Positions 14,065-56,752 of a stretch of 64,000 nucleotides of DNA are shown here, in pieces. The position numbers were made by a program, and so were the translations under genes. Every line of letters starts with the position of its first letter. Position 1 is the first letter of the stretch. The stretch lies in the NCBI GenBank assembly GCA_965208945.1, contig OZ242366.1, forward strand, positions 2,195,827 through 2,259,826, in the 5' to 3' direction. The notes under the pieces are model-generated. The model did no database searches, was not told where the DNA came from, and saw only the letters and a list, made by a program, of their open reading frames with translations. The stretch is from Bryobacterales bacterium (lineage in GTDB: Bacteria; Acidobacteriota; Terriglobia; Bryobacterales; UBA6623).

Positions 14065-14181
14065 GGGAGCGAACCAGCGGGCCGCAGGCGGCGGTCGTTT
14101 CGTGTTCGCCAAGCGGGGGGTGGGGAGAGAGCAGGCTCATTGTACCAGAGGCTCGGCACGATACCATGGAACGATCAGCTT

Positions 14182-22284: not shown

Positions 22285-22485
22285 CCTGTATTTCTCACCA
22301 CGCGGCGAGGCGAAGTGCGTGAGAGGGCCGTCAGGACGAGGCGCAAGCCGGGCGGAGGAAAAAGGCGCGAGCCGCTTGGCGCGCGCAGGCGTACTTGAAC
22401 CGTACGTTGAGCACGGCAAGCAAGCGCAACGAAGTCCTGGTGCTCGTATCGTGTGCTTCGACCGTTGGGTGGTGAGAAATGCAGG
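22285..22485 (+). mobile_element. MITE copy D (long subfamily, 201 bp)
   Basis: Flanked by a direct TTAG...TTAG (22281-22284 and 22486-22489). Contains the extra segment aagccgggcggaggaaaaaggcgcg. Confidence 0.9.
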
Positions 22486-23265: not shown

Positions 23266-23285
23266 CGGCGAGCGCCGGTCGCTAG

Positions 23286-23666
23286 CCTGCATGTCTCACC
23301 ACGTGGCGAGGCGAAGTGGGTGAGAGGACCGTCAGGACTAGCCTGCATGTCTCACCACGCGGCGAGGTGAAGTGCGTGAGAGGGCCGTCAGGACGAGGCG
23401 CGAGCCGCTTGGCGCGCGCAGGCGTACTTGACAGTACGTTGAGCACGGCAAGCAAGCGCAACGAAGTCCTGGCGGTCGTATCGCGTGCTTCGGCCGTCGG
23501 GTGGTGAGAAATGCAGGCTAGGCGCAAGCCGGGCGGAGGAAAAAGGCGCGAGCCGCTTGGCGCGCGCAGGCGTACTTGAACAGTACGTTGAGTACGGCAA
23601 GCAAACGCAACGAAGTCCTGGCGGTCGTATGGCGTGCTTCGACCGTCGGGTGGTGAGAAATGCAGG
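23286..23666 (+). mobile_element. MITE copy E1 (long subfamily) carrying nested copy E2
   Basis: E1 is interrupted after gtcaggac by E2. E1 sequence resumes at 23522 with gcgcaagccggg. Confidence 0.88.
23342..23517 (+). mobile_element. MITE copy E2 (short subfamily) nested in E1
   Basis: Complete TIRs, with CTAG on both sides (23338-23341 and 23518-23521). Confidence 0.88.
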
Positions 23667-23783
23667 CTGGGGTTGTCCGGTCGCAAAGTATCCATCGTAA
23701 CGCGGAATGGAGGCGTCAAAGCCCGTAGTGGCCTCGTTTTCGACGTCCGTGAGGTTTCTGAGGTCAGGCCGGATAATGGGGCT

Positions 23784-27068: not shown

Positions 27069-27243
27069 AATCGTTTACCGACACCGTGCCCCTTCGGAGG
27101 CCCGGACAGTTGCAGCGAACGCTTGGATCACGTTCGCTGCAGATTCAAAATCGCCCGTTTCTCCGTTCGAAGCAGGTACCAGTCTCCGGCATTTTGATTT
27201 AGGAATGTTCTGCTGCCGAGAAGACGCGTGCGTCTCAGGCTAG

Positions 27244-27419
27244 CCTGCATTTCTCACCACGCGGCGAGGCGAAGTGCGTGAGAGGGCCGTCAGGACGAGG
27301 CGCGCGCCGCTTGGCGCGCGCAGGCGTACTTGACGGTACGTTGAGCACGGCAAGCAAGCGCAACGAAGTCCTGGCGGTCATATCGTGTGCTTCGACCGTC
27401 GAGTGGTGAGAAATGCAGG
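27244..27419 (+). mobile_element. MITE copy G1 (short subfamily)
   Basis: TIRs present, with CTAG on both flanks (27240-27243 and 27420-27423). Confidence 0.9.
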
Positions 27420-27515
27420 CTAGAGCTTTCAGTGCACCCGGAATCGGTCCAAGAAAATAGCTAATGTAACACATTCCGAAAACCGCAAGTGCATTGAACC
27501 ACGGTGCGTTTCTAG

Positions 27516-27692
27516 CCTGCATTTCTCACCACGTGGCGAGGCGAAGTGGGTGAGAGGGCCGTCAGGACGAGGCGCGCGCCGCTTGGCGCGCGCAGGCGTA
27601 CTTGAACAGTACGTTGAGCACGGCAAGCAAGCGCAACGAAGTCATGACGGTCATATGGCGTGCTTCGACCGTCGGGTGGTGAGAAATGCGGG
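27516..27692 (+). mobile_element. MITE copy G2 (short subfamily)
   Basis: TIRs present. Flanks are CTAG and CTAA. Separated from G1 by an 88-bp AT-richer spacer. Confidence 0.9.
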
Positions 27693-27840
27693 CTAAGCGG
27701 CTGCGGGCTGGCGGCGCGGGCATCGCACTGCGCCGGGGAACATTCCGCGAGACGAGACCTCGCTCGACGTCAACACCCCCGCTGGTGCAGGCCTGCATCG
27801 TGCCCGTCCCAGCGCGGCATCGACAACGACTTCTGAGAGA

Positions 27841-51192: not shown

Positions 51193-52340
51193 CTAAACCT
51201 TCGTTCGGCGTTCTGCTCGTAACGGGCGGGATGACCCACCAGGAGAACTACGGAGAGGGATTCCTCGCCGACCCGCGCGCAAGAGTCGTCGGCCTTACCG
51301 ATGAACCCGATGTCGACGAACGCCGCGACCGCCTGAACCGCGGATTGGCCGATCAGTTCGGCATCCCCTTCCTGCCGGATATCCGCGAGGCGCTCGCGCG
51401 GTCCGATGTGCACCTCGTCTCCGTCTGCTCGGAGTTCGAGCGGCGCACCCGCGTCTCTCAAATCTGTGCGGAAGCCGGCAAGCATCTCTACGTCGACAAG
51501 CCCATGGTGACGAAGATGGCGGAGGCCGACAAACTCGTGGCGACAGCCGGGCGGCGTGGTTTGCGCGGGCAGATGTTCACTCAGGTCGGCGCGCCGTACG
51601 CGAGGCGGCTGAAAGGAATCGTCGATTCCGGTGCTTTGGGCGAGATCAAGTCGATCCAGTGTGACCTCATGTTCGCGAAGGGTTTCACCGGCGGCGCTCC
51701 GCTTGGCGTGCCGCGGCGCGAGCACGATCCGCCCAGGCGGTTCACGTTCCCGGACGCCAAGCGTGAGATCTGGACGACCGCGGTCTATTCGCTCACCTTG
51801 ATCCGCTGGCTCCTCGGCGGACCCCGCTTTCGTAGCGTCTACGCCACGAGCGCCAACTACTTTTTCGAGGAGCACTACAAACGCGATGTCGAGGACTTCG
51901 GCACGCTTGCTCTCACGCTCGACAACGGCGTCACGGCGTCGCTGATCGCCGGCCGGATCGGTTGGCACAGTCACCGCAGTTCCGGCCCGAACTTCACGCG
52001 CATCATCGGTAGCAAGCGCAGCTTCCTTCTTGACGCGCACAGCCCGCGCTTCGAAATCTCGTCCGACCGAAAGTGGGCGCCGCCGGCGAAGGACCCCATC
52101 GATCCCATGGGCTTCTGGTCGAGCACCATGGAGCGTGGGAACGCTCAACCCAAGCCCTTTTGGCATGAGCCGCCGACCGCGCCCGGGCAATCGGATCAGG
52201 CTCTCTTCCTCGATTGCCTCGAACAGGACAAAGAGCCGGAAGTCACGCTGGACGATGCCGCGCAGGCATCCGAGGCCATGCTGGCCGCCTACCGGTCCGC
52301 TGCGACAGGGCAGGTGGTGGCGTTGCCTCTGCCGCGCTAG
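51186..52340 (+). CDS. Gfo/Idh/MocA family oxidoreductase
   Basis: 384 aa. Rossmann beta1 plus Gly-rich loop FGVLLVTGG begins at codon 7. The only in-frame start after the upstream TGA (51179-51181) is the ATG inside the MITE N terminus. The stop TAG lies in the CTAG flank of MITE K. Confidence 0.8.
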   Translation: MQAKPSFGVLLVTGGMTHQENYGEGFLADPRARVVGLTDEPDVDERRDRLNRGLADQFGIPFLPDIREALARSDVHLVSVCSEFERRTRVSQICAEAGKHLYVDKPMVTKMAEADKLVATAGRRGLRGQMFTQVGAPYARRLKGIVDSGALGEIKSIQCDLMFAKGFTGGAPLGVPRREHDPPRRFTFPDAKREIWTTAVYSLTLIRWLLGGPRFRSVYATSANYFFEEHYKRDVEDFGTLALTLDNGVTASLIAGRIGWHSHRSSGPNFTRIIGSKRSFLLDAHSPRFEISSDRKWAPPAKDPIDPMGFWSSTMERGNAQPKPFWHEPPTAPGQSDQALFLDCLEQDKEPEVTLDDAAQASEAMLAAYRSAATGQVVALPLPR

Positions 52341-52396
52341 CCTGCATTTTTCACGACGTGGCGAGGCGAAGTGGGTGAGAGGGCCGTCAGGACTAG

Positions 52397-54120
52397 CCCG
52401 GAAATCTCACCAGGGGGTAGGAAAAGGGCTGCCTGGTGTGGCATAAAACATTTATGTCCAAAACGTTAGCGCCACAAGCCGAAAGCAGCCCTCTGTCAAC
52501 AGAGTGTATCCAATCCAGCTTCACCTTTGCCAAGCATTTTCGACGCCAGGTGAGCGCTCGCTTTGACGGCGGGGTGATCAGTTCCGACGGCGGCGCGCTG
52601 CTGTTACGGGAGGTGGACCAGCGCATCAACCTGCTGCCGCGCTTGGCGGGCTGCTTCGAGGATGGCCGCGATTCGCGGCGCATCGAACACCTGGTGGGGG
52701 AGTTGGTCTCGCAGCGGGTCTACGGGCTGGCGCTGGGATACGAAGACCTCAACGATCACGACGAGTTGCGGCGCGATCCGGTGCTGGCGCTGCTGGCGGG
52801 CAAGAGCGACGTGTCCGGGCAGCGCCGCCGCCGCGAGCGTGACCGCGGCCAGCCGCTGGCGGGCAAGAGCACGTTGCAGCGACTGGAACGAACGACCGAT
52901 GGCGTGGATCGTTACCAGAAGGTCCGCTGCGTCAGCGAAGCGATCGACCGCCTGTTGGTGGACGTGTTCGTGGAAGCGCACTCGCAGGAGCCGGCCGAGG
53001 TCCTACTCGATATCGACGCCACCGACACGCCTTTGCACGGGCAGCAGGAGGGACGTTTCTTTCACGGCTACTACAGACACTACTGCTACTTGCCGCTGTA
53101 CATCTTCAGCGGCGAGCACGTGTTGTGCGCGCGGCAGCGGGTATCGAATCAAGACGCGGCGGCGGGCAGCGTAGCGGAGTTGGAGAGGATCGTGGCGCAG
53201 CTCCGGGCCGCGTGGCCGGAGGTGAAGATCATCCTGCGTGGGGACTCGGGGTTTTGTCGGGACGAGTTGCTGAGTTGGTGCGAAGAGAACCGGGTGGACT
53301 ATGTGGTGGGGCTGGCGCGCAACGAGCGGCTGCAGTCGTTGATCGAGGAGGCGCTCGAAGAGGCGGCCAGCAGGCAGCAGCAAACGGGCCGGCCGGCGCG
53401 GGCCTACAGCGAGTTCGAGTATCGGACGCTTGAGAGTTGGAGCCGGGAGCGGCGGGTGGTGGCGAAAGCCGAACAGTTGGTGGGCAAGCAGAACCCGCGC
53501 TACGTGGTGACGTCGCTGGACGGGGAGCGCTGGCCGCCGCGGCGGTTGTATGAACAACTCTACTGCGGGCGCGGGGAGGCGGAGAATCGCATCAAGGAGC
53601 AGTTGAGTCTGTTCGCGGATCGCATGAGTACGGAGACGCTACGGGCCAATCAGTTGCGGCTGCATCTGTCGTCGCTGGCGTATGTGTTGCTGGTGGGACT
53701 GCGGCGGCTGGGGCTGAAGGGCACGCAGTGGGCGCGGGCGCAGACCGAGACGATCCGGCGGGGGCTGTTGAAGATCGGCGCGCTGGTGAAGGTGAGCGTG
53801 CGGCGGGTGCATCTGTCGCTGGCCAGCGGCTACCCCGATGAGGAGGCGTTCGCGGCGGTGTATCGGGCGCTGCGTCCGCCGGGACCAGCAACTGTTTGAC
53901 AACAGTGAGCGAACCGAAAAACGGGGCCGTCGGCAGCCTCAGGGGCGAAGTGTTTCTCAAATCGGCCACAACCCGAAAAACGAACATTCGCGAGCCGCTA
54001 AGGGCAGCGCAAAACGCCCCGTAGAGGCCTTCACTCACCCTCGCCGCGAAGAATACCGTGTTTCAGACCCTATTTCGGCCTCCCTCAACCCATCGCGAAG
54101 CCGCTGGTGAGAAATGCAGG
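52397..54120 (+). mobile_element. IS1380-family insertion sequence (1724 bp), probable autonomous partner of the MITE
   Basis: Bounded by CTAG direct repeats (52393-52396 and 54121-54124). IRL is cccggaaatctcaccagg and IRR is gctggtgagaaatgcagg. IRR matches the MITE TIR at 16 of 17 positions. Confidence 0.85.
52436..53899 (+). CDS. IS1380 family DDE transposase
   Basis: 487 aa. N-terminal FDGGVISSDGGALLLREVD and the blocks LDIDATDTPLHGQQEGRFFHGYY and RGDSGFCR are typical of this family, identified from memory. Confidence 0.85.
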   Translation: MWHKTFMSKTLAPQAESSPLSTECIQSSFTFAKHFRRQVSARFDGGVISSDGGALLLREVDQRINLLPRLAGCFEDGRDSRRIEHLVGELVSQRVYGLALGYEDLNDHDELRRDPVLALLAGKSDVSGQRRRRERDRGQPLAGKSTLQRLERTTDGVDRYQKVRCVSEAIDRLLVDVFVEAHSQEPAEVLLDIDATDTPLHGQQEGRFFHGYYRHYCYLPLYIFSGEHVLCARQRVSNQDAAAGSVAELERIVAQLRAAWPEVKIILRGDSGFCRDELLSWCEENRVDYVVGLARNERLQSLIEEALEEAASRQQQTGRPARAYSEFEYRTLESWSRERRVVAKAEQLVGKQNPRYVVTSLDGERWPPRRLYEQLYCGRGEAENRIKEQLSLFADRMSTETLRANQLRLHLSSLAYVLLVGLRRLGLKGTQWARAQTETIRRGLLKIGALVKVSVRRVHLSLASGYPDEEAFAAVYRALRPPGPATV

Positions 54121-54281
54121 CTAGGCGCAAGCCGGGCGAAGGAAAAAGGCGCGAGCCGCTTGGCGCGCGCAGGCGTACTTATGGGATGGTTCGCTCCCAC
54201 TTCCGCTGCGTCGTCGAGTTCGGCCATGCTGGTAGCAACGGCCGTCCCCGGCCGCAGTTCACGAACCGAGAGGAAACCATC

Positions 54282-55355
54282 ATGGCAACGACCCAGCGAT
54301 CATCCCGCAAGAGCGTATGGAAGGAGGTCGTCACGATCGGCCTCGATCTAGCAAAACACAACGTCGACTTGGTCGGCTTGGACGCAACCGGCCGGGTGCT
54401 CACCCGTCGCCGCTACTCGAAGGGCAAGCTGCTGGAGGTGACCGCCCAGATGCAGCCCTGCCGTATCGGCATGGAAGCCTGCTGCGGCGCCCATCACCTG
54501 GGCCGCCAACTGCTGGCCCAGGGGCACGACGTGAAGCTGATGCCGCCCAAATATGTGAAGCCCTTTGTGAAGCGCGACAAGAACGACTCGACGGACGCCG
54601 AGGCCTGCGCGGAAGCCTGTCTGCGGCCGAGCATGCGCTTCGTGGCGGTCAAGAGCGAGCAACAACTGTCGATGCAGTCGCTGCACCGCTATCGCTCGCG
54701 GCTGGTGGGCAACTCGACGCAGTTGATCAACCAGGCGCGCGCCTTTCTGCTGGAACGCGGCATCACCCTTCCACAGGGCAAGCGTTGGTTTGTGGTCCGT
54801 CTGCCGGAGATCCTCGAGGACGCCGATAACGGCCTGTCCGACGAAATGCGGGCGCTGCTGGCGGGCATGTTTGCCGAATGGCAAGTGCTGGCAGAGAAGA
54901 TTCAGCAAGTCAACACCTATCTGCTGAGGAAAGCGCAGGCGAGCGAGGCCTGCCGGCGGCTCAGAGAGATCCCCGGCATCGGCGTGCAGACAGCGACGGC
55001 CTTGGTGGCGACGATCGGCAACGCCGAGGCCTTCGAGAAGGGGCGCGACGTCGCTGCTTGGTTGGGTCTGGTGCCGAGAGAGTACTCCAGCGGAGGCAAG
55101 CAGCGCTTGGGAGGCATCAGCAAGCGCGGCAACCGCTACGTCCGGACGCTGCTGGTGCACTGTGCCCGCTCGAGCCTCGACGTGCTCGCGAAGCGCAGCG
55201 ACCAACTCGGCCAGTGGCTGCGGCGGATGCTCCTGAACAAAGATCGGCGGGTCGTGATCGTGGCGCTGGCGGCACGGCTGGCGCGCATCGCATGGGCCTT
55301 GCTGAGCAGCGGCCAGCGCTTCTCTCAACAGCGGCAACCAGCCCCGGCGGGTTAA
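54282..55355 (+). CDS. IS110 family DEDD transposase/recombinase
   Basis: 357 aa. Blocks IGLDLAK, GMEAC, KNDSTDAEA, and C-terminal GISKRGNRYVR. Confidence 0.9.
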   Translation: MATTQRSSRKSVWKEVVTIGLDLAKHNVDLVGLDATGRVLTRRRYSKGKLLEVTAQMQPCRIGMEACCGAHHLGRQLLAQGHDVKLMPPKYVKPFVKRDKNDSTDAEACAEACLRPSMRFVAVKSEQQLSMQSLHRYRSRLVGNSTQLINQARAFLLERGITLPQGKRWFVVRLPEILEDADNGLSDEMRALLAGMFAEWQVLAEKIQQVNTYLLRKAQASEACRRLREIPGIGVQTATALVATIGNAEAFEKGRDVAAWLGLVPREYSSGGKQRLGGISKRGNRYVRTLLVHCARSSLDVLAKRSDQLGQWLRRMLLNKDRRVVIVALAARLARIAWALLSSGQRFSQQRQPAPAG

Positions 55356-55618
55356 CCGCCCTGCGGTCCGCCGTAGCACTACCAGGAGCTCACAGTTTGT
55401 CTGCTTACTCCCGATTGATGGACAAAACGGTCGTACCGGCGTCACCGAATCCTGTTACTGTTCATGGCCCTCACAGGTCGGCGTACTTATGAGGAGCGGG
55501 ACGTGCGGACCCCATCATGGCCCGGAACCAGCGCGGTTCCACCTAGAGGTCGGATATATTGGCGCAGACCAACGTTCAGCAAGAAGGAATAGGTGGACAT
55601 CCCGGGAGCGAACCATAT
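55356..55618 (+). ncRNA. Candidate guide (bridge/seek-type) RNA region in the IS110-family right end
   Basis: Contains tactgttca (55456-55464), the reverse complement of the right target flank tgaacagta. Also contains ggcgtactt (55480-55488), identical to the left target flank. A hairpin ggaacc-agcgc-ggttcc is present. No fold model could be run. Confidence 0.4.
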
Positions 55619-55864
55619 ATTGAACAGTACGTTGAGCACGGCAAGCAAGCGCAACGAAGTCCTGGCGGTCGTATCGCGTGCTTAGACCGCCGGGTGGCGA
55701 GAAATGTAGGCTAGTCGCTCCCGGAACGGTTCCCTGCCATCCCGCGCGCCAAGAGCGCCGGGCGATCGCTTGACGTAGGTGAGCCCTGAGCCGCTATCGA
55801 AGATCAGAGCGGTGTGATAACCTGACAGCAGCTCGACCCGCATACTCATTTGGGAGGAACGAAC

Positions 55865-56752
55865 ATGTCCATCGAGAGACGCCATTTTTTCCGCCACGGA
55901 CTCGCCGTCGGCGCGGCGCTTGCGACCGGCTTGGATCGAAACCGCGCGCACGCCGCCGCACTCCCTCGCAGGTACGCCAACGACGTGGTCGAGTTGGGGC
56001 CCGACAAGGTCAAGCTCTCCCGTCTGGCGATGGGCACCGGCACCAGCGGTTTCGGCGGGTCTTCGAATCAGACGCGCCAGCTCGGCGTCAAGGGCATGGT
56101 CGATTTGGTTTGGTTCGGCTACGACAACGGCGTTACGTTTTGGGATTCGGCGGATCAGTACGGAAGCCATCCGCACCTGAAGGGCGCGCTCAAGCACATC
56201 CCGCGCGAAAAGGTCGCGATCATGACCAAGACCCACGCCAAGACCTACGAAGAGATGCGGCGCGACCTCGACCGCTACAAAAAGGAACTCGGCACGGACT
56301 ACATCGACATCGTCCTGTTGCACGCCATGCGCGAAGTCGATTGGCCCACGCAACGCAAAGGCGCCATGGAATACCTTTCCGAGATGCGCGAGAAGGGTGT
56401 GGTCAGGACGCACGGGGTCTCCTGTCACTCGCTGCCGGCCTTGAAGACCGCCGCCAAGACACCATGGGTGCACGTTGACCTCGCGCGCATCAACCCGATG
56501 GGCGTCGCGATGGATGCCGACCCTGCCACCGTCAAAGACGTCCTGCGCGATATGAAGAGTCAAGGCAAGGGCATCATCGGCATGAAGATTCTGGGCGCGG
56601 GCAAGATGCGCCGTCGGGTCGACGAGATGCTCTCCCACGCGCTTGCGATGGACTTCATCGACACCTTTACGATCGGCGCCGAGAGCGTCCAGGAGCTTGG
56701 CGATCTGGTTCGCCGCATCCCGCAAGCGTCGCAGCGCGGCTGGCCGAGCTAA
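55865..56752 (+). CDS. Aldo/keto reductase, Tat-type signal
   Basis: Starts MSIERRHFFRHGLAVGAALATG after gggagg. AKR blocks are present. Confidence 0.88.
   Translation: MSIERRHFFRHGLAVGAALATGLDRNRAHAAALPRRYANDVVELGPDKVKLSRLAMGTGTSGFGGSSNQTRQLGVKGMVDLVWFGYDNGVTFWDSADQYGSHPHLKGALKHIPREKVAIMTKTHAKTYEEMRRDLDRYKKELGTDYIDIVLLHAMREVDWPTQRKGAMEYLSEMREKGVVRTHGVSCHSLPALKTAAKTPWVHVDLARINPMGVAMDADPATVKDVLRDMKSQGKGIIGMKILGAGKMRRRVDEMLSHALAMDFIDTFTIGAESVQELGDLVRRIPQASQRGWPS

What the first reader, a model, noticed from the sequence alone, without database searches (positions are those of the whole stretch)
54181..55618. IS110-family (IS1111-like) element in the loop of the MITE central hairpin, with target-matching 9-mers in its non-coding right end
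The uninterrupted MITE centre reads aggcgtacttgaacagtacg, a hairpin of cgtact / agtacg. In copy K it is split as ...aggcgtactt | IS | (tt)gaacagtacg.... The IS has subterminal inverted repeats GGTTCGCTCCC about 7 bp from each end and a long 3' non-coding end, which is the IS1111-subgroup layout. Within that end, tactgttca (55456-55464) is the exact reverse complement of the right target flank. Sixteen nt later, ggcgtactt (55480-55488) is identical to the left target flank and continues as atg, like the IS left end. Two exact 9-mers addressing opposite strands of the two flanks are what the recently described IS110 bridge RNA / IS1111 seekRNA target-binding loop would encode. If correct, this IS is RNA-programmed to land in a MITE present in many copies, a parasite-of-a-parasite arrangement. 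The MITE family then supplies a ready set of natural target sites. Copies N and L carry a variant centre and would be predicted non-targets.
Basis: partly seen in the sequence, partly recalled or inferred. Interest (0 to 1): 0.8.

Follow-up and report, generated by a model that had tools for sequence, protein, structure and literature searches.

The report
RNA-guided IS1111-type element inside a MITE
This is an intact insertion sequence of the known IS110/IS1111 "bridge RNA / seekRNA" kind. Its own non-coding RNA spells out the exact site, in the central hairpin of a small repeated element, where it has landed; this is a clean natural example of an already described mechanism, not a new one.

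Summary

**The element.** Window 54181-55621 is a 1441-bp IS1111-group element.
- It has an intact 357-aa DEDD transposase.
- It has perfect 13-bp subterminal inverted repeats.
- Its 3' non-coding end is 266 bp.
- A TT core is present at both junctions.

**The site.** It sits in the apical hairpin of a ~185-bp MITE that has at least 12 further copies in the window.

[quoted passage not shown] It is also detectable in IS4321.
- The two 9-mers lie on opposite strands of an internal loop.
- That loop is closed by helices with many compensatory changes.

**Guide-to-flank matching.** Over 62 distinct insertion events, these two blocks track the flanks at the exact junctions.
- Bottom-strand block: 4.6 of 6 variable positions match, against 1.6 in mismatched controls.
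- Top-strand block: 7.7 of 9 match, against 4.7 in controls.

Sister elements occupy the same MITE position at five other genomic sites. A second arm carries blocks that match the element's own ends.

**Caveats.**
- RNA expression and transposition activity are not shown.
- One relative (L007) does not match its flanks.

**Verdict.** This is a new member of a known kind, of moderate interest.

The parts
54181..55621 (+). Whole IS1111-group insertion sequence, 1441 bp, counting the shared TT core once at the right. The equivalent span is 54179-55619.
   Evidence: Junctions were compared with 8 uninterrupted MITE centres. Relatives align exactly to these ends.
54179..54180 (+). Left copy of the core dinucleotide TT. 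The right copy is at 55620-55621.
   Evidence: The empty site has a single TT and the occupied site has one at each junction. TT is invariant at the end of the bottom-strand guide in the family.
54181..54198 (+). Left end: ATGGG followed by the 13-bp subterminal inverted repeat ATGGTTCGCTCCC (54186-54198).
   Evidence: the repeat finder I12, 100% complementary. The end is conserved in relatives.
54282..55355 (+). Transposase gene: 357 aa plus stop, a DEDD/RuvC-like domain plus Transposase_20, with GLVPREYSSG at aa 262-271.
   Evidence: Pfam PF01548 (E 9e-18) and PF02371 (E 6e-27). NCBIfam NF033542 'IS110 family RNA-guided transposase', 335 bits against a cut-off of 140. Motif found.
55428..55571 (+). 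Conserved structured non-coding RNA core of about 145-150 nt, the candidate long seekRNA or bridge RNA. Closing helix CGGUC (55428-55432) pairs with GACC(A) (55567-55571).
   Evidence: [quoted passage not shown] Pair counts are. An HMM of the family hits the IS4321 non-coding end, E 3.4e-12.
55436..55508 (+). Target-binding arm. Basal helix 55436-55453 pairs with 55492-55508. Distal hairpin UGGCC (55465-55469) pairs with GGUCG (55476-55480). The internal loop between them holds both guides.
   Evidence: RNAalifold on 58 sequences: 13 of 19 pairs have compensatory changes. Helices are 94-100% paired, against 29-46% when partners are slid.
55456..55464 (+). Top-strand guide UACUGUUCA, complementary to T+GAACAGTA of the right flank.
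   Evidence: Exact 9 of 9. The family mean is 7.74 of 9 against 4.69 in controls.
55480..55491 (+). Bottom-strand guide (G)GCGUACUU, identical to the left flank plus core. It is followed by AUG, which matches the first bases of the left end (a junction-like extension).
   Evidence: Exact match to 54172-54183. Family per-position match is 0.79-1.0 for the last 7 positions and 0.19 for the first of the 8 scored positions.
55509..55563 (+). Donor-binding arm. CCCAU (55511-55515) is complementary to the left end ATGGG. It also holds helix UGGCC/GGUCG, hairpin GGAACC/GGUUCC, then AUAUAUU (55554-55560), which equals the right end ATATA plus TT.
   Evidence: Both blocks change together with the ends across lineages: CCCAT/ATGGG and ATATATT here; TCCAT/ATGGA and ATACGTT in Alphaproteobacteria; ATACATT in L008 and L047; CTCAT/ATGAG and ATAGATT in IS4321.
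55594..55621 (+). Outward-facing sigma-70-like promoter TGGACA-16 nt-TATATT at the tip of the right end. In a circular form it would read across the junction into the transposase gene.
   Evidence: It is the only promoter-like site in 54000-55800, 10 of 12 matches, against 0.2 expected. Its function is inferred.
55604..55619 (+). Right subterminal inverted repeat GGGAGCGAACCAT plus terminal ATA.
   Evidence: (I12).
54125..54180 (+). Left remnant of the host MITE copy, 5'-truncated and abutting the right terminal repeat of the IS1380-family element.
   Evidence: Alignment with other copies.
55622..55714 (+). Right half of the host MITE copy, up to its terminal inverted repeat at 55694-55714.

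Best explanation
Window 54181-55621 is an intact IS1111-group member of the IS110 family. It chooses its insertion site with an RNA encoded in its own 3' non-coding end.

**The RNA.** It is about 150 nt (about 55428-55571) and has two arms closed by one helix.

- **First arm (target).** An internal loop carries two guide strands.
  - UACUGUUCA pairs with the top strand of the right half of the target.
  - GCGUACUU pairs with the bottom strand of the left half.
  - The two overlap at the TT core.
- **Second arm (donor).** It carries the analogous pair for the joined ends of the element.
  - CCCAU is directed at the left end ATGGG.
  - AUAUAUU is directed at the right end ATATA plus TT.

**The inferred reaction.** The transposase-RNA complex brings a circular copy of the element and the target together and recombines them at TT, without a target duplication.

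**The target.** Here the programmed site is GGCGTAC-TT-GAACAGTA. It is a small hairpin at the apex of a ~185-bp MITE derived from an IS1380-family element, so every MITE copy is a potential landing pad.

**Shown here**
- The anatomy of the element.
- The conservation and covariation of the RNA.
- The correspondence between guides and flanks, and between guides and ends, across relatives.
- Repeated use of the same MITE site.

**Inferred from the published family mechanism**
- That the RNA is made and binds the transposase.
- The circular intermediate.
- Transcription from the promoter at the right end.
- Current activity of this copy.
For: **Family features**
- Pfam and NCBIfam hits.
- The GL-P----SG motif.
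- A perfect 13-bp subterminal repeat.
- 266 bp of non-coding sequence after the gene against 101 bp before it.
- About 41-42% identity over 87% of the protein to IS4321 and IS5075 transposases.

**Guides**
- Exact 9-mers abut the junction, with the top-strand match 5' of the bottom-strand match and the two overlapping in the target. This is the order reported for IS1111 seekRNAs (PMC11187229).

**Structure**
- The guides lie in an internal loop between covarying helices.
- Overall 89% of cells are paired, against 29-46% when partners are slid.
- The covariation score is 0.321 against 0.166 in shuffles; 0 of 500 shuffles reach the observed value.

**Natural reprogramming**
- In close relatives with the same scaffold and the same ends, the two blocks differ and match their own flanks: L002/L003, L005/L006, L084-86, L090, L093, L094, L095.
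- Over 62 unique events, 30 have at least 5 of 6 and at least 8 of 9 matches, against 0.5% of mismatched pairings.

**Same site reused**
- Five other distinct genomic sites carry a sister element at the same MITE position.

**Homology to a characterised group**
- The RNA model hits the IS4321 3' end (E 3.4e-12).
- IS4321's blocks read out the flanks of that copy, which I recognise from memory as a Tn21-family terminal repeat.
Against: - No transcript data are available.
- Rfam 15 has no matching family.
- The single-sequence fold is no more stable than shuffles: z = +0.44 to +0.57. Within it the two guides partly pair with each other, because the target is itself palindromic.
- No closing basal helix was found for the donor arm.
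- The three bases after AUAUAUU match the right flank only inconsistently.
- Relative L007 has guides that match neither flank. L091 matches on one side only.
- Only one copy of the element is present in 64 kb, although at least 4 perfect empty sites are there. Activity may therefore be low or nil.
Confidence: 0.9

Rival explanations
1. The two 9-mers are chance matches, or a duplicated fragment of the left junction (ggcgtacttatg) carried into the right end. They play no part in targeting.
For: The 12-nt ggcgtacttatg is literally identical to the left junction. A 9-mer in both orientations somewhere in the 38-nt site arises in 0.25% of shuffles.
Against: The same two alignment columns hold different sequences in relatives, and each matches that relative's own flanks within an otherwise conserved scaffold. 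The trailing A(UG) is a conserved scaffold feature in nearly all 58 sequences.
Confidence: 0.02
2. Site choice is made mainly by the protein recognising a DNA hairpin or the MITE structure. The RNA matches would then be secondary or only fine-tune the choice.
For: The target is a small hairpin at the apex of a strongly folding palindromic MITE, z = -8. A 2026 preprint reports that a target stem-loop adds specificity for ISPpu10 (10.64898/2026.03.19.712850).
Against: Relatives with near-identical proteins and ends insert at unrelated sequences that follow their guide blocks. A structural contribution is not excluded, but it cannot explain the correspondence between guides and flanks.
Confidence: 0.05
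3. The element was RNA-guided when it arrived, but this copy is now inactive. The arrangement would then be a fossil, not a working parasite of a parasite.
For: There is a single copy in 64 kb despite at least 4 perfect and several near-perfect empty sites. Related genomes show only 1-2 copies in the loci retrieved.
Against: The open reading frame is intact with its catalytic motifs, the subterminal repeats are perfect, and both guides match 9 of 9. This copy fits the MITE consensus better than its sister elements do, which is not what decay predicts.
Confidence: 0.15

Closest known systems
IS1111-group seekRNA elements (ISEc11, ISPa11, ISKpn4, ISPst6; Siddiquee et al. 2024, PMC11187229)
   Same: - DEDD transposase with the GL-P----S(t)G motif.
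- Subterminal inverted repeats.
- Long non-coding region downstream of the gene.
- The top-strand match is 5' of the bottom-strand match, and the two overlap in the target.
- Long RNA form of about 145-170 nt and short form of 70-100 nt. Here the structured core is about 150 nt and the target arm about 73 nt.
- The targets of those elements are folded repeats (REP, attC).
   Different: - The transposase is distant: about 41-42% identity to IS4321 and IS5075. ISEc11, ISPa11 and ISKpn4 were not compared directly.
- The host is probably Bryobacterales (Acidobacteriota).
- The target is the central hairpin of an IS1380-derived MITE.
- There is no experimental evidence for this element.
[quoted passage not shown]
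   Same: - It is also an insertion sequence that lands at one position inside another mobile element.
- The HMM of the RNA found here detects the IS4321 3' end (E 3.4e-12).
- The IS4321 blocks match its flanks and its own ends in the same layout.
   Different: - Different target, ends and host.
- IS4321 targets the end of a transposon, whereas this element targets the middle of a non-autonomous MITE.
- That the IS4321 flanks belong to a Tn21-type repeat rests on my memory, on reference titles seen, and on the adjacent Tn3-family transposase gene.
IS621 bridge RNA (IS110 group; Durrant et al. 2024 PMC11208160; Hiraizumi et al. 2024 PMC11208158)
   Same: - Two-part RNA with a target-binding and a donor-binding region.
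- Each region reads one strand on each side of a 2-nt core.
- Recombination at the core without a target duplication.
- Bases next to a guide match the recombinant junction, as the handshake guides do.
   Different: - The RNA is in the right end, after the gene, not in the left end.
- The order of the strand matches is reversed.
- Long subterminal repeats are present.
- The core is TT, not CT.
- The donor strands appear to sit in a three-way junction, because no closing helix was found.
- The protein shows only distant similarity to IS621 (E 4e-13, C-terminal domain).
ISPpu9 / ISPpu10 / ISPa11 in REP elements (PMC12288879; Tobes & Pareja 2006, seen here only as an entry in a reference list)
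   Same: An IS110-family element uses a high-copy palindromic genomic repeat as a reservoir of safe landing sites.
   Different: REP elements are mobilised by a different mechanism from MITEs. That statement is my background knowledge, not tested here. The host repeat in this window is a classical MITE with 21-bp terminal repeats, and its IS1380-family parent lies next door.

Membership tests
IS110 family, IS1111 group | [quoted passage not shown] | tested here: met
   PF01548 E 9.4e-18, residues 19-157. The D/E/D/D positions align with ISCro4 in the PDB alignment.
IS110 family, IS1111 group | C-terminal Transposase_20 domain (PF02371) with the conserved Ser in GL-P----S(t)G | tested here: met
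   PF02371 E 6.2e-27. GLVPREYSSG at residues 262-271. The motif is as defined in PMC11187229.
IS110 family, IS1111 group | Subterminal inverted repeats of 7-17 bp, set a few bases in from each end | tested here: met
   A perfect 13-bp repeat lies 5 nt from the left end and 3 nt (plus TT) from the right end. The length range is from PMC11208160.
IS110 family, IS1111 group | The longer non-coding region lies downstream of the transposase gene | tested here: met
   266 bp downstream against 101 bp upstream.
IS110 family, IS1111 group | Site- and orientation-specific insertion at a short core, with no target duplication beyond the shared core | tested here: met
   The empty sites have one TT. The same position and orientation are used at 6 distinct sites, counting the window copy but not the truncated L004.
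IS110 family, IS1111 group | Transposase related over its full length to established IS1111-group transposases | tested here: met
   41-42% identity over residues 9-320 (87%) to annotated IS4321 and IS5075 transposases. IS1111 itself was not compared.
seekRNA / bridge RNA systems | [quoted passage not shown] | tested here: met
   Generalised over 62 events.
seekRNA / bridge RNA systems | The guides sit in an internal loop of a conserved, covarying RNA structure | tested here: met
   for the target arm. The distal helices of the donor arm are supported, but no basal helix was found.
seekRNA / bridge RNA systems | A second region of the RNA matches the element's own ends (donor recognition) | tested here: met
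   CCCAU pairs with ATGGG, and AUAUAUU equals ATATA plus TT. The blocks covary with the ends across four lineages.
seekRNA / bridge RNA systems | The RNA is transcribed, binds the transposase and is required for transposition | not testable with these tools
   No expression or biochemical data. Only a promoter-like site at the right end.
seekRNA / bridge RNA systems | A circular double-stranded intermediate with a right end-core-left end junction | not testable with these tools
   No read data are available and no circle junction is present in the loci.
Rfam-curated RNA family | A match to any Rfam 15 covariance model | tested here: not met
   Only two chance-level hits, E about 7-9, in 53900-55900. 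This bears on whether the RNA is catalogued, not on how it works.

The most novel reading that the evidence does not exclude
A Bryobacterales lineage of IS1111-type elements keeps identical ends and donor-recognition blocks. It has nevertheless diversified into at least about 10 natural guide alleles.

One allele is dedicated to the apical hairpin of an IS1380-derived MITE. That would be a true hyperparasite, whose number of landing sites grows as its host MITE amplifies.

Because the ends are shared, RNA from one allele could mobilise copies of another in trans. This would explain the copies whose guides do not match their flanks (L007 and the left side of L091).
Probability: 0.3. Interest if true: 0.5.

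Novelty: new member of a known kind. Interest (0 to 1): 0.35.

Why it matters
**Mechanistic value**
- It is a well-documented natural example of RNA-programmed site choice in the IS1111 branch, which has been studied less than IS621.
- The set of close relatives has the same scaffold and ends but different guides, each with known natural targets. Such a set can be used to work out guide length and register for IS1111-type RNAs.
  - The first base of the bottom-strand block is unused.
  - The register of the top-strand block varies by 0-2 nt.

**Biological value**
- It shows one mobile element specialising on another mobile element's repeated hairpin, in a poorly studied soil phylum.

**Limit**
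- It does not change the current picture of how these elements work.

Tried and rejected
- **Rfam scan** of 53900-55900 at E up to 10: nothing relevant.
- **Single-sequence folding** of 55356-55618 and of 55424-55573: no more stable than shuffles, z = +0.57 and +0.44. Thermodynamic stability is therefore not evidence either way, and I relied on covariation.
- **Exact-protein look-up** of the window transposase: not on record.
- **First loose guide-to-flank test**, which searched for the guides anywhere in the flanks: enriched but noisy. It was replaced by the junction-anchored test. Two regular expressions had failed before that.
- **Donor-arm helix 5** as first drawn on alignment A2 was only 60% paired, because the Bryobacterales rows are one base shorter there. 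Corrected by hand.
- **Closing helix under the donor strands:** looked for, none found.
- **Handshake-like match** between the three bases after AUAUAUU and the right flank: present in L003 (3 of 3), L093 and L020 (2 of 3), but absent in most. Not claimed.
- **Metagenome scan** with the 18-mer right end: 17 loci, of which about half are matches in unrelated AT-rich contigs, as expected by chance for an 18-mer in a collection of that size.
- **Nearby GGGAGCGAACC at 14065:** an isolated 11-mer, not an element end.
Full report
**1. The observation**

- The left junction reads ...gcgcgcaggcgtacTT|ATGGGATGGTTCGCTCCC.
- The right junction reads GGGAGCGAACCATATA|TTgaacagtacg.
- Eight further copies of AGGCGTACTTGAACAGTACG lie in the window with at most 1 mismatch, against 0 expected. 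They carry a single TT where the occupied copy has one TT on each side.
- The element is therefore 54181-55621 (1441 bp) with a shared TT core.
- The repeat finder gives a perfect 13-bp subterminal inverted repeat, ATGGTTCGCTCCC / GGGAGCGAACCAT.
- tactgttca (55456-55464) is the reverse complement of T+GAACAGTA.
- ggcgtactt (55480-55488) equals the left flank and is followed by atg, as at the left junction.
- These are the longest matches between the 266-nt non-coding end and the 38-nt reconstructed empty site. tactgttca occurs nowhere else in the 64 kb.

**2. The protein and the host repeat**

The protein:
- The ORF 54282-55355 encodes 357 aa with Pfam DEDD_Tnp_IS110 and Transposase_20.
- It hits NCBIfam NF033542, 'IS110 family RNA-guided transposase', at 335 bits against a cut-off of 140.
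- It carries the IS1111-type motif GL-P----SG (GLVPREYSSG, aa 262-271). The motif is as described in PMC11187229.
- It is 41-42% identical over 87% of its length to annotated IS4321 and IS5075 transposases.
- It is only distantly related to the solved IS621 and ISCro4 proteins.

The host repeat:
- It is a real MITE of about 185 bp with 21-bp terminal inverted repeats (CTAGCCTGCATTTCTCACCAC).
- There are 14 left-end and 18 right-end hits in 64 kb.
- It folds as a long imperfect hairpin, z = -8. The target forms a small apical hairpin.

**3. Relatives**

- A genome scan returned 80 loci.
- The nearest, at 76-90% protein identity, are all from Bryobacterales MAGs. This suggests the origin of the window.
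- The rest, at about 50%, are alphaproteobacterial.
- Further close relatives came from protein look-ups and a metagenome scan.
- L001, L010 (the same locus as L098), L081 (the same locus as L083) and L082 carry a sister element at exactly the same position and orientation of the same MITE. The sequence outside the MITE differs in each.
- L004 is a 5'-truncated copy in a MITE centre that lacks one A.
- That gives six distinct full insertion sites, counting the window copy, plus one truncated copy.

**4. The RNA**

Aligning the 3' ends of the close relatives shows a nearly invariant scaffold interrupted by two short hypervariable blocks.

The blocks follow the flanks:

| Locus | Top-strand block, read as its complement | Bottom-strand block | Own flanks |
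|---|---|---|---|
| L002/L003 | TTGCCTGGT | GTTGAATT | ttgaaTT / TTtgcctgg |
| L005/L006 | TCGGTGACG | ACAAAGTT | ccaaagTT / TTggtgacgg |
| L090 | TTGTGTGTG | AGAAAGTT | gaaagTT / TTgtgtatg |
| L093 | TTCGAGCGG | CAAGCGTT | taagcgTT / TTcgagcgg |
| L084-86 | TTGACAGCG | CCATGTTT | catgtTT / TTgac... |

- RNAalifold on 58 distinct sequences places both blocks on opposite strands of an internal loop. The loop lies between a basal helix of about 14 bp and a 5-bp distal hairpin. 13 of the 19 pairs show compensatory changes.
- On a structure I specified, 89% of cells pair, against 29-46% when the 3' partners are slid. The covariation score is 0.321 against 0.166 in shuffles, and 0 of 500 shuffles reach it.
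- A closing helix (CGGUC / GACC) switches between A-U and G-C in 13 sequences.
- In this window the structured core spans about 55428-55571 and the target arm spans 55436-55508. These sizes fit the published long form (145-170 nt) and short form (70-100 nt) of the seekRNA.

**5. Quantifying the guide-to-flank correspondence**

I anchored on the left and right ends in 74 loci. This gave 62 unique insertion events, which I compared with all pairings of guides and junctions from different elements.

| Measure | Observed | Mismatched control |
|---|---|---|
| Bottom-strand block, matches in 6 variable positions | 4.61 | 1.60 |
| Top-strand block, matches in 9 positions | 7.74 | 4.69 |
| Events with at least 5 of 6 and at least 8 of 9 | 30 of 62 | 0.5% |

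- Position 1 of the 8-nt bottom-strand block is not used (0.19 match). The other positions match at 0.79-1.0.
- The window copy scores 6 of 6 and 9 of 9. It is the only one of the 62 events to reach the maximum on both guides.
- The register of the top-strand match relative to the core varies by 0-2 nt among relatives. I cannot explain this.

**6. Donor recognition**

A second arm has a conserved helix UGGCC/GGCCG around a hairpin that always forms but whose sequence varies. It is flanked by two blocks that match the element's own ends:
- CCCAU is the complement of the left end ATGGG.
- AUAUAUU equals the right end ATATA plus TT.

These blocks change together with the ends across lineages:

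| Lineage | Left-end pair | Right-end block |
|---|---|---|
| Bryobacterales (this window) | CCCAT / ATGGG | ATATATT |
| Alphaproteobacteria | TCCAT / ATGGA | ATACGTT |
| L008 and L047 | not read for these two | ATACATT |
| IS4321 | CTCAT / ATGAG | ATAGATT |

The layout mirrors the target arm: the complement of what lies right of the core comes first, then the sense of what lies left of the core. This is the logic of the two binding loops of bridge RNAs (PMC11208160, PMC11208158). I found no helix closing this loop at its base.

**7. Link to characterised elements**

- The RNA HMM detects the 3' end of an annotated IS4321 copy, E 3.4e-12.
- There the top-strand block reads TTCCGTTTT against the right flank TT+CCGTTTTCTGAGACGACCCC.
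- The bottom-strand block reads TATATTTT against the left flank ...GCTTTATTT.
- From memory I recognise these flanks as a Tn21-family terminal repeat. This agrees with the adjacent Tn3-family transposase gene and with the title of Partridge & Hall 2003, cited.
- The RNA here is therefore homologous to that of a canonical IS1111-group element, not merely analogous.

**8. Mechanism: shown and inferred**

Shown: the anatomy, the conserved and covarying RNA structure, the guide-to-flank and guide-to-end correspondence, and reuse of the same site.

Inferred from the published work on ISEc11, ISPa11, ISKpn4 and IS621:
- The RNA is transcribed with the transposase gene and processed.
- It binds the transposase and pairs with both strands of the target and the donor.
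- Recombination takes place at TT between a circular copy and the target.
- The AUG after the bottom-strand guide, which equals the first bases of the left end, acts like a handshake guide.

The only sigma-70-like site in 54000-55800 is TGGACA-16-TATATT (55594-55621) at the tip of the right end, facing outward. In a circle it would read into the left end and the transposase gene. That agrees with the published idea of a promoter that becomes active once the ends are joined. Here, however, both hexamers lie within the right end.

**9. What does not fit**

- L007 has a frameshifted transposase gene. Its guides (complement TTGCTTTTG; ATTTGGTT) match neither flank (cagcTT / TGtggaatag).
- L091 lies inside a sulfatase gene and matches on the top-strand side only.
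- Possible explanations are mobilisation in trans by a sister element with the same ends, recombination between copies, or off-target events. None was tested.
- The window holds at least 4 perfect empty targets but only one copy of the element, so activity is probably low.
- Rfam has no model for this RNA, and single-sequence folding energy is uninformative.

**10. Comparison with what is known, and verdict**

- Bridge RNAs were predicted in 93% of IS1111 elements, within the right end (PMC11208160).
- seekRNAs have been shown experimentally for four IS1111 members (PMC11187229).
- Family members are already known to target REP elements, attC sites and transposon terminal repeats.
- This element meets every family-defining feature that sequence analysis can test.
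- What is new is the particular element, its probable acidobacterial host, and its target: the apical hairpin of an IS1380-derived MITE whose autonomous parent lies immediately upstream.
One mismatch per guide is common in natural events, and L004 occupies a variant centre.

This is a new member of a known kind, of moderate interest.

Noticed in passing
window 52337-54124: A complete IS1380-family element lies immediately upstream. Its transposase is at 52436-53899 (NF033539, 384 bits; PF13701). Its terminal repeats, and the first ~59 nt of its left end, are the same as those of the MITE. It is the likely autonomous parent of the MITE family, and it directly abuts the truncated MITE copy that hosts the IS1111-type element.
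   Followed up: partly
window 23282-23670, 27240-27696, 54104-54160: MITE copies occur in tandem or nested arrays. A recurrent junction GGCTAG|GCGCAAGCCGGGCG(G/A)AGGAAAAAGGCGCGAGCC appears after a right terminal repeat at two places. The same 24-nt segment is an internal insertion in copies at 22387 and 31651. This suggests self-targeting or a length variant of the MITE.
   Followed up: no
window 55594-55621, then 55865-56752: The outward-facing promoter-like site at the right end of the element points through the remaining MITE half towards an aldo/keto reductase gene (PF00248) about 240 bp downstream. The insertion could alter that gene's expression.
   Followed up: no
L007 (CBDCLH010000008.1), about 1400-2823: A relative with a frameshifted transposase gene has guide blocks (CAAAAGCAA / ATTTGGTT) that match neither of its flanks, and its right core reads TG, not TT. 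It is the one clear exception to the guide-to-flank rule among the close relatives.
   Followed up: partly
L091/L092 (JAJEHF010000151.1): A relative sits inside a sulfatase gene, with PF00884 fragments on both sides. Its top-strand guide matches 8 of 9 but its bottom-strand guide matches only AGTT. This may be an off-target insertion tolerated on one side.
   Followed up: no
family-wide (62 events): The register of the top-strand guide relative to the TT core differs among relatives. The best offset is 0, 1 or 2 in 33, 23 and 6 events. The scaffold alignment shows no matching insertion or deletion. Unexplained.
   Followed up: partly
L100 and L103 (metagenome contigs MKWU01009393.1, Ga0209021_1004765): An isolated right-end fragment of about 50 nt of the L003-type element (...GACCAACGTCCGTCGGGTCGGCTGCTGTAGACAACTCGGGAGCGAACCATATATT) has no RNA or transposase gene upstream. 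It is flanked by tttgccc, which resembles that element's target. It may be a deletion remnant.
   Followed up: no
L084 2894-4071; L094 3501-3983: Two relatives have reverse-transcriptase genes directly downstream. L084 has RVT_1 plus GIIM, which is group II intron-like. L094 has RVT_1. These may be co-located mobile elements.
   Followed up: no
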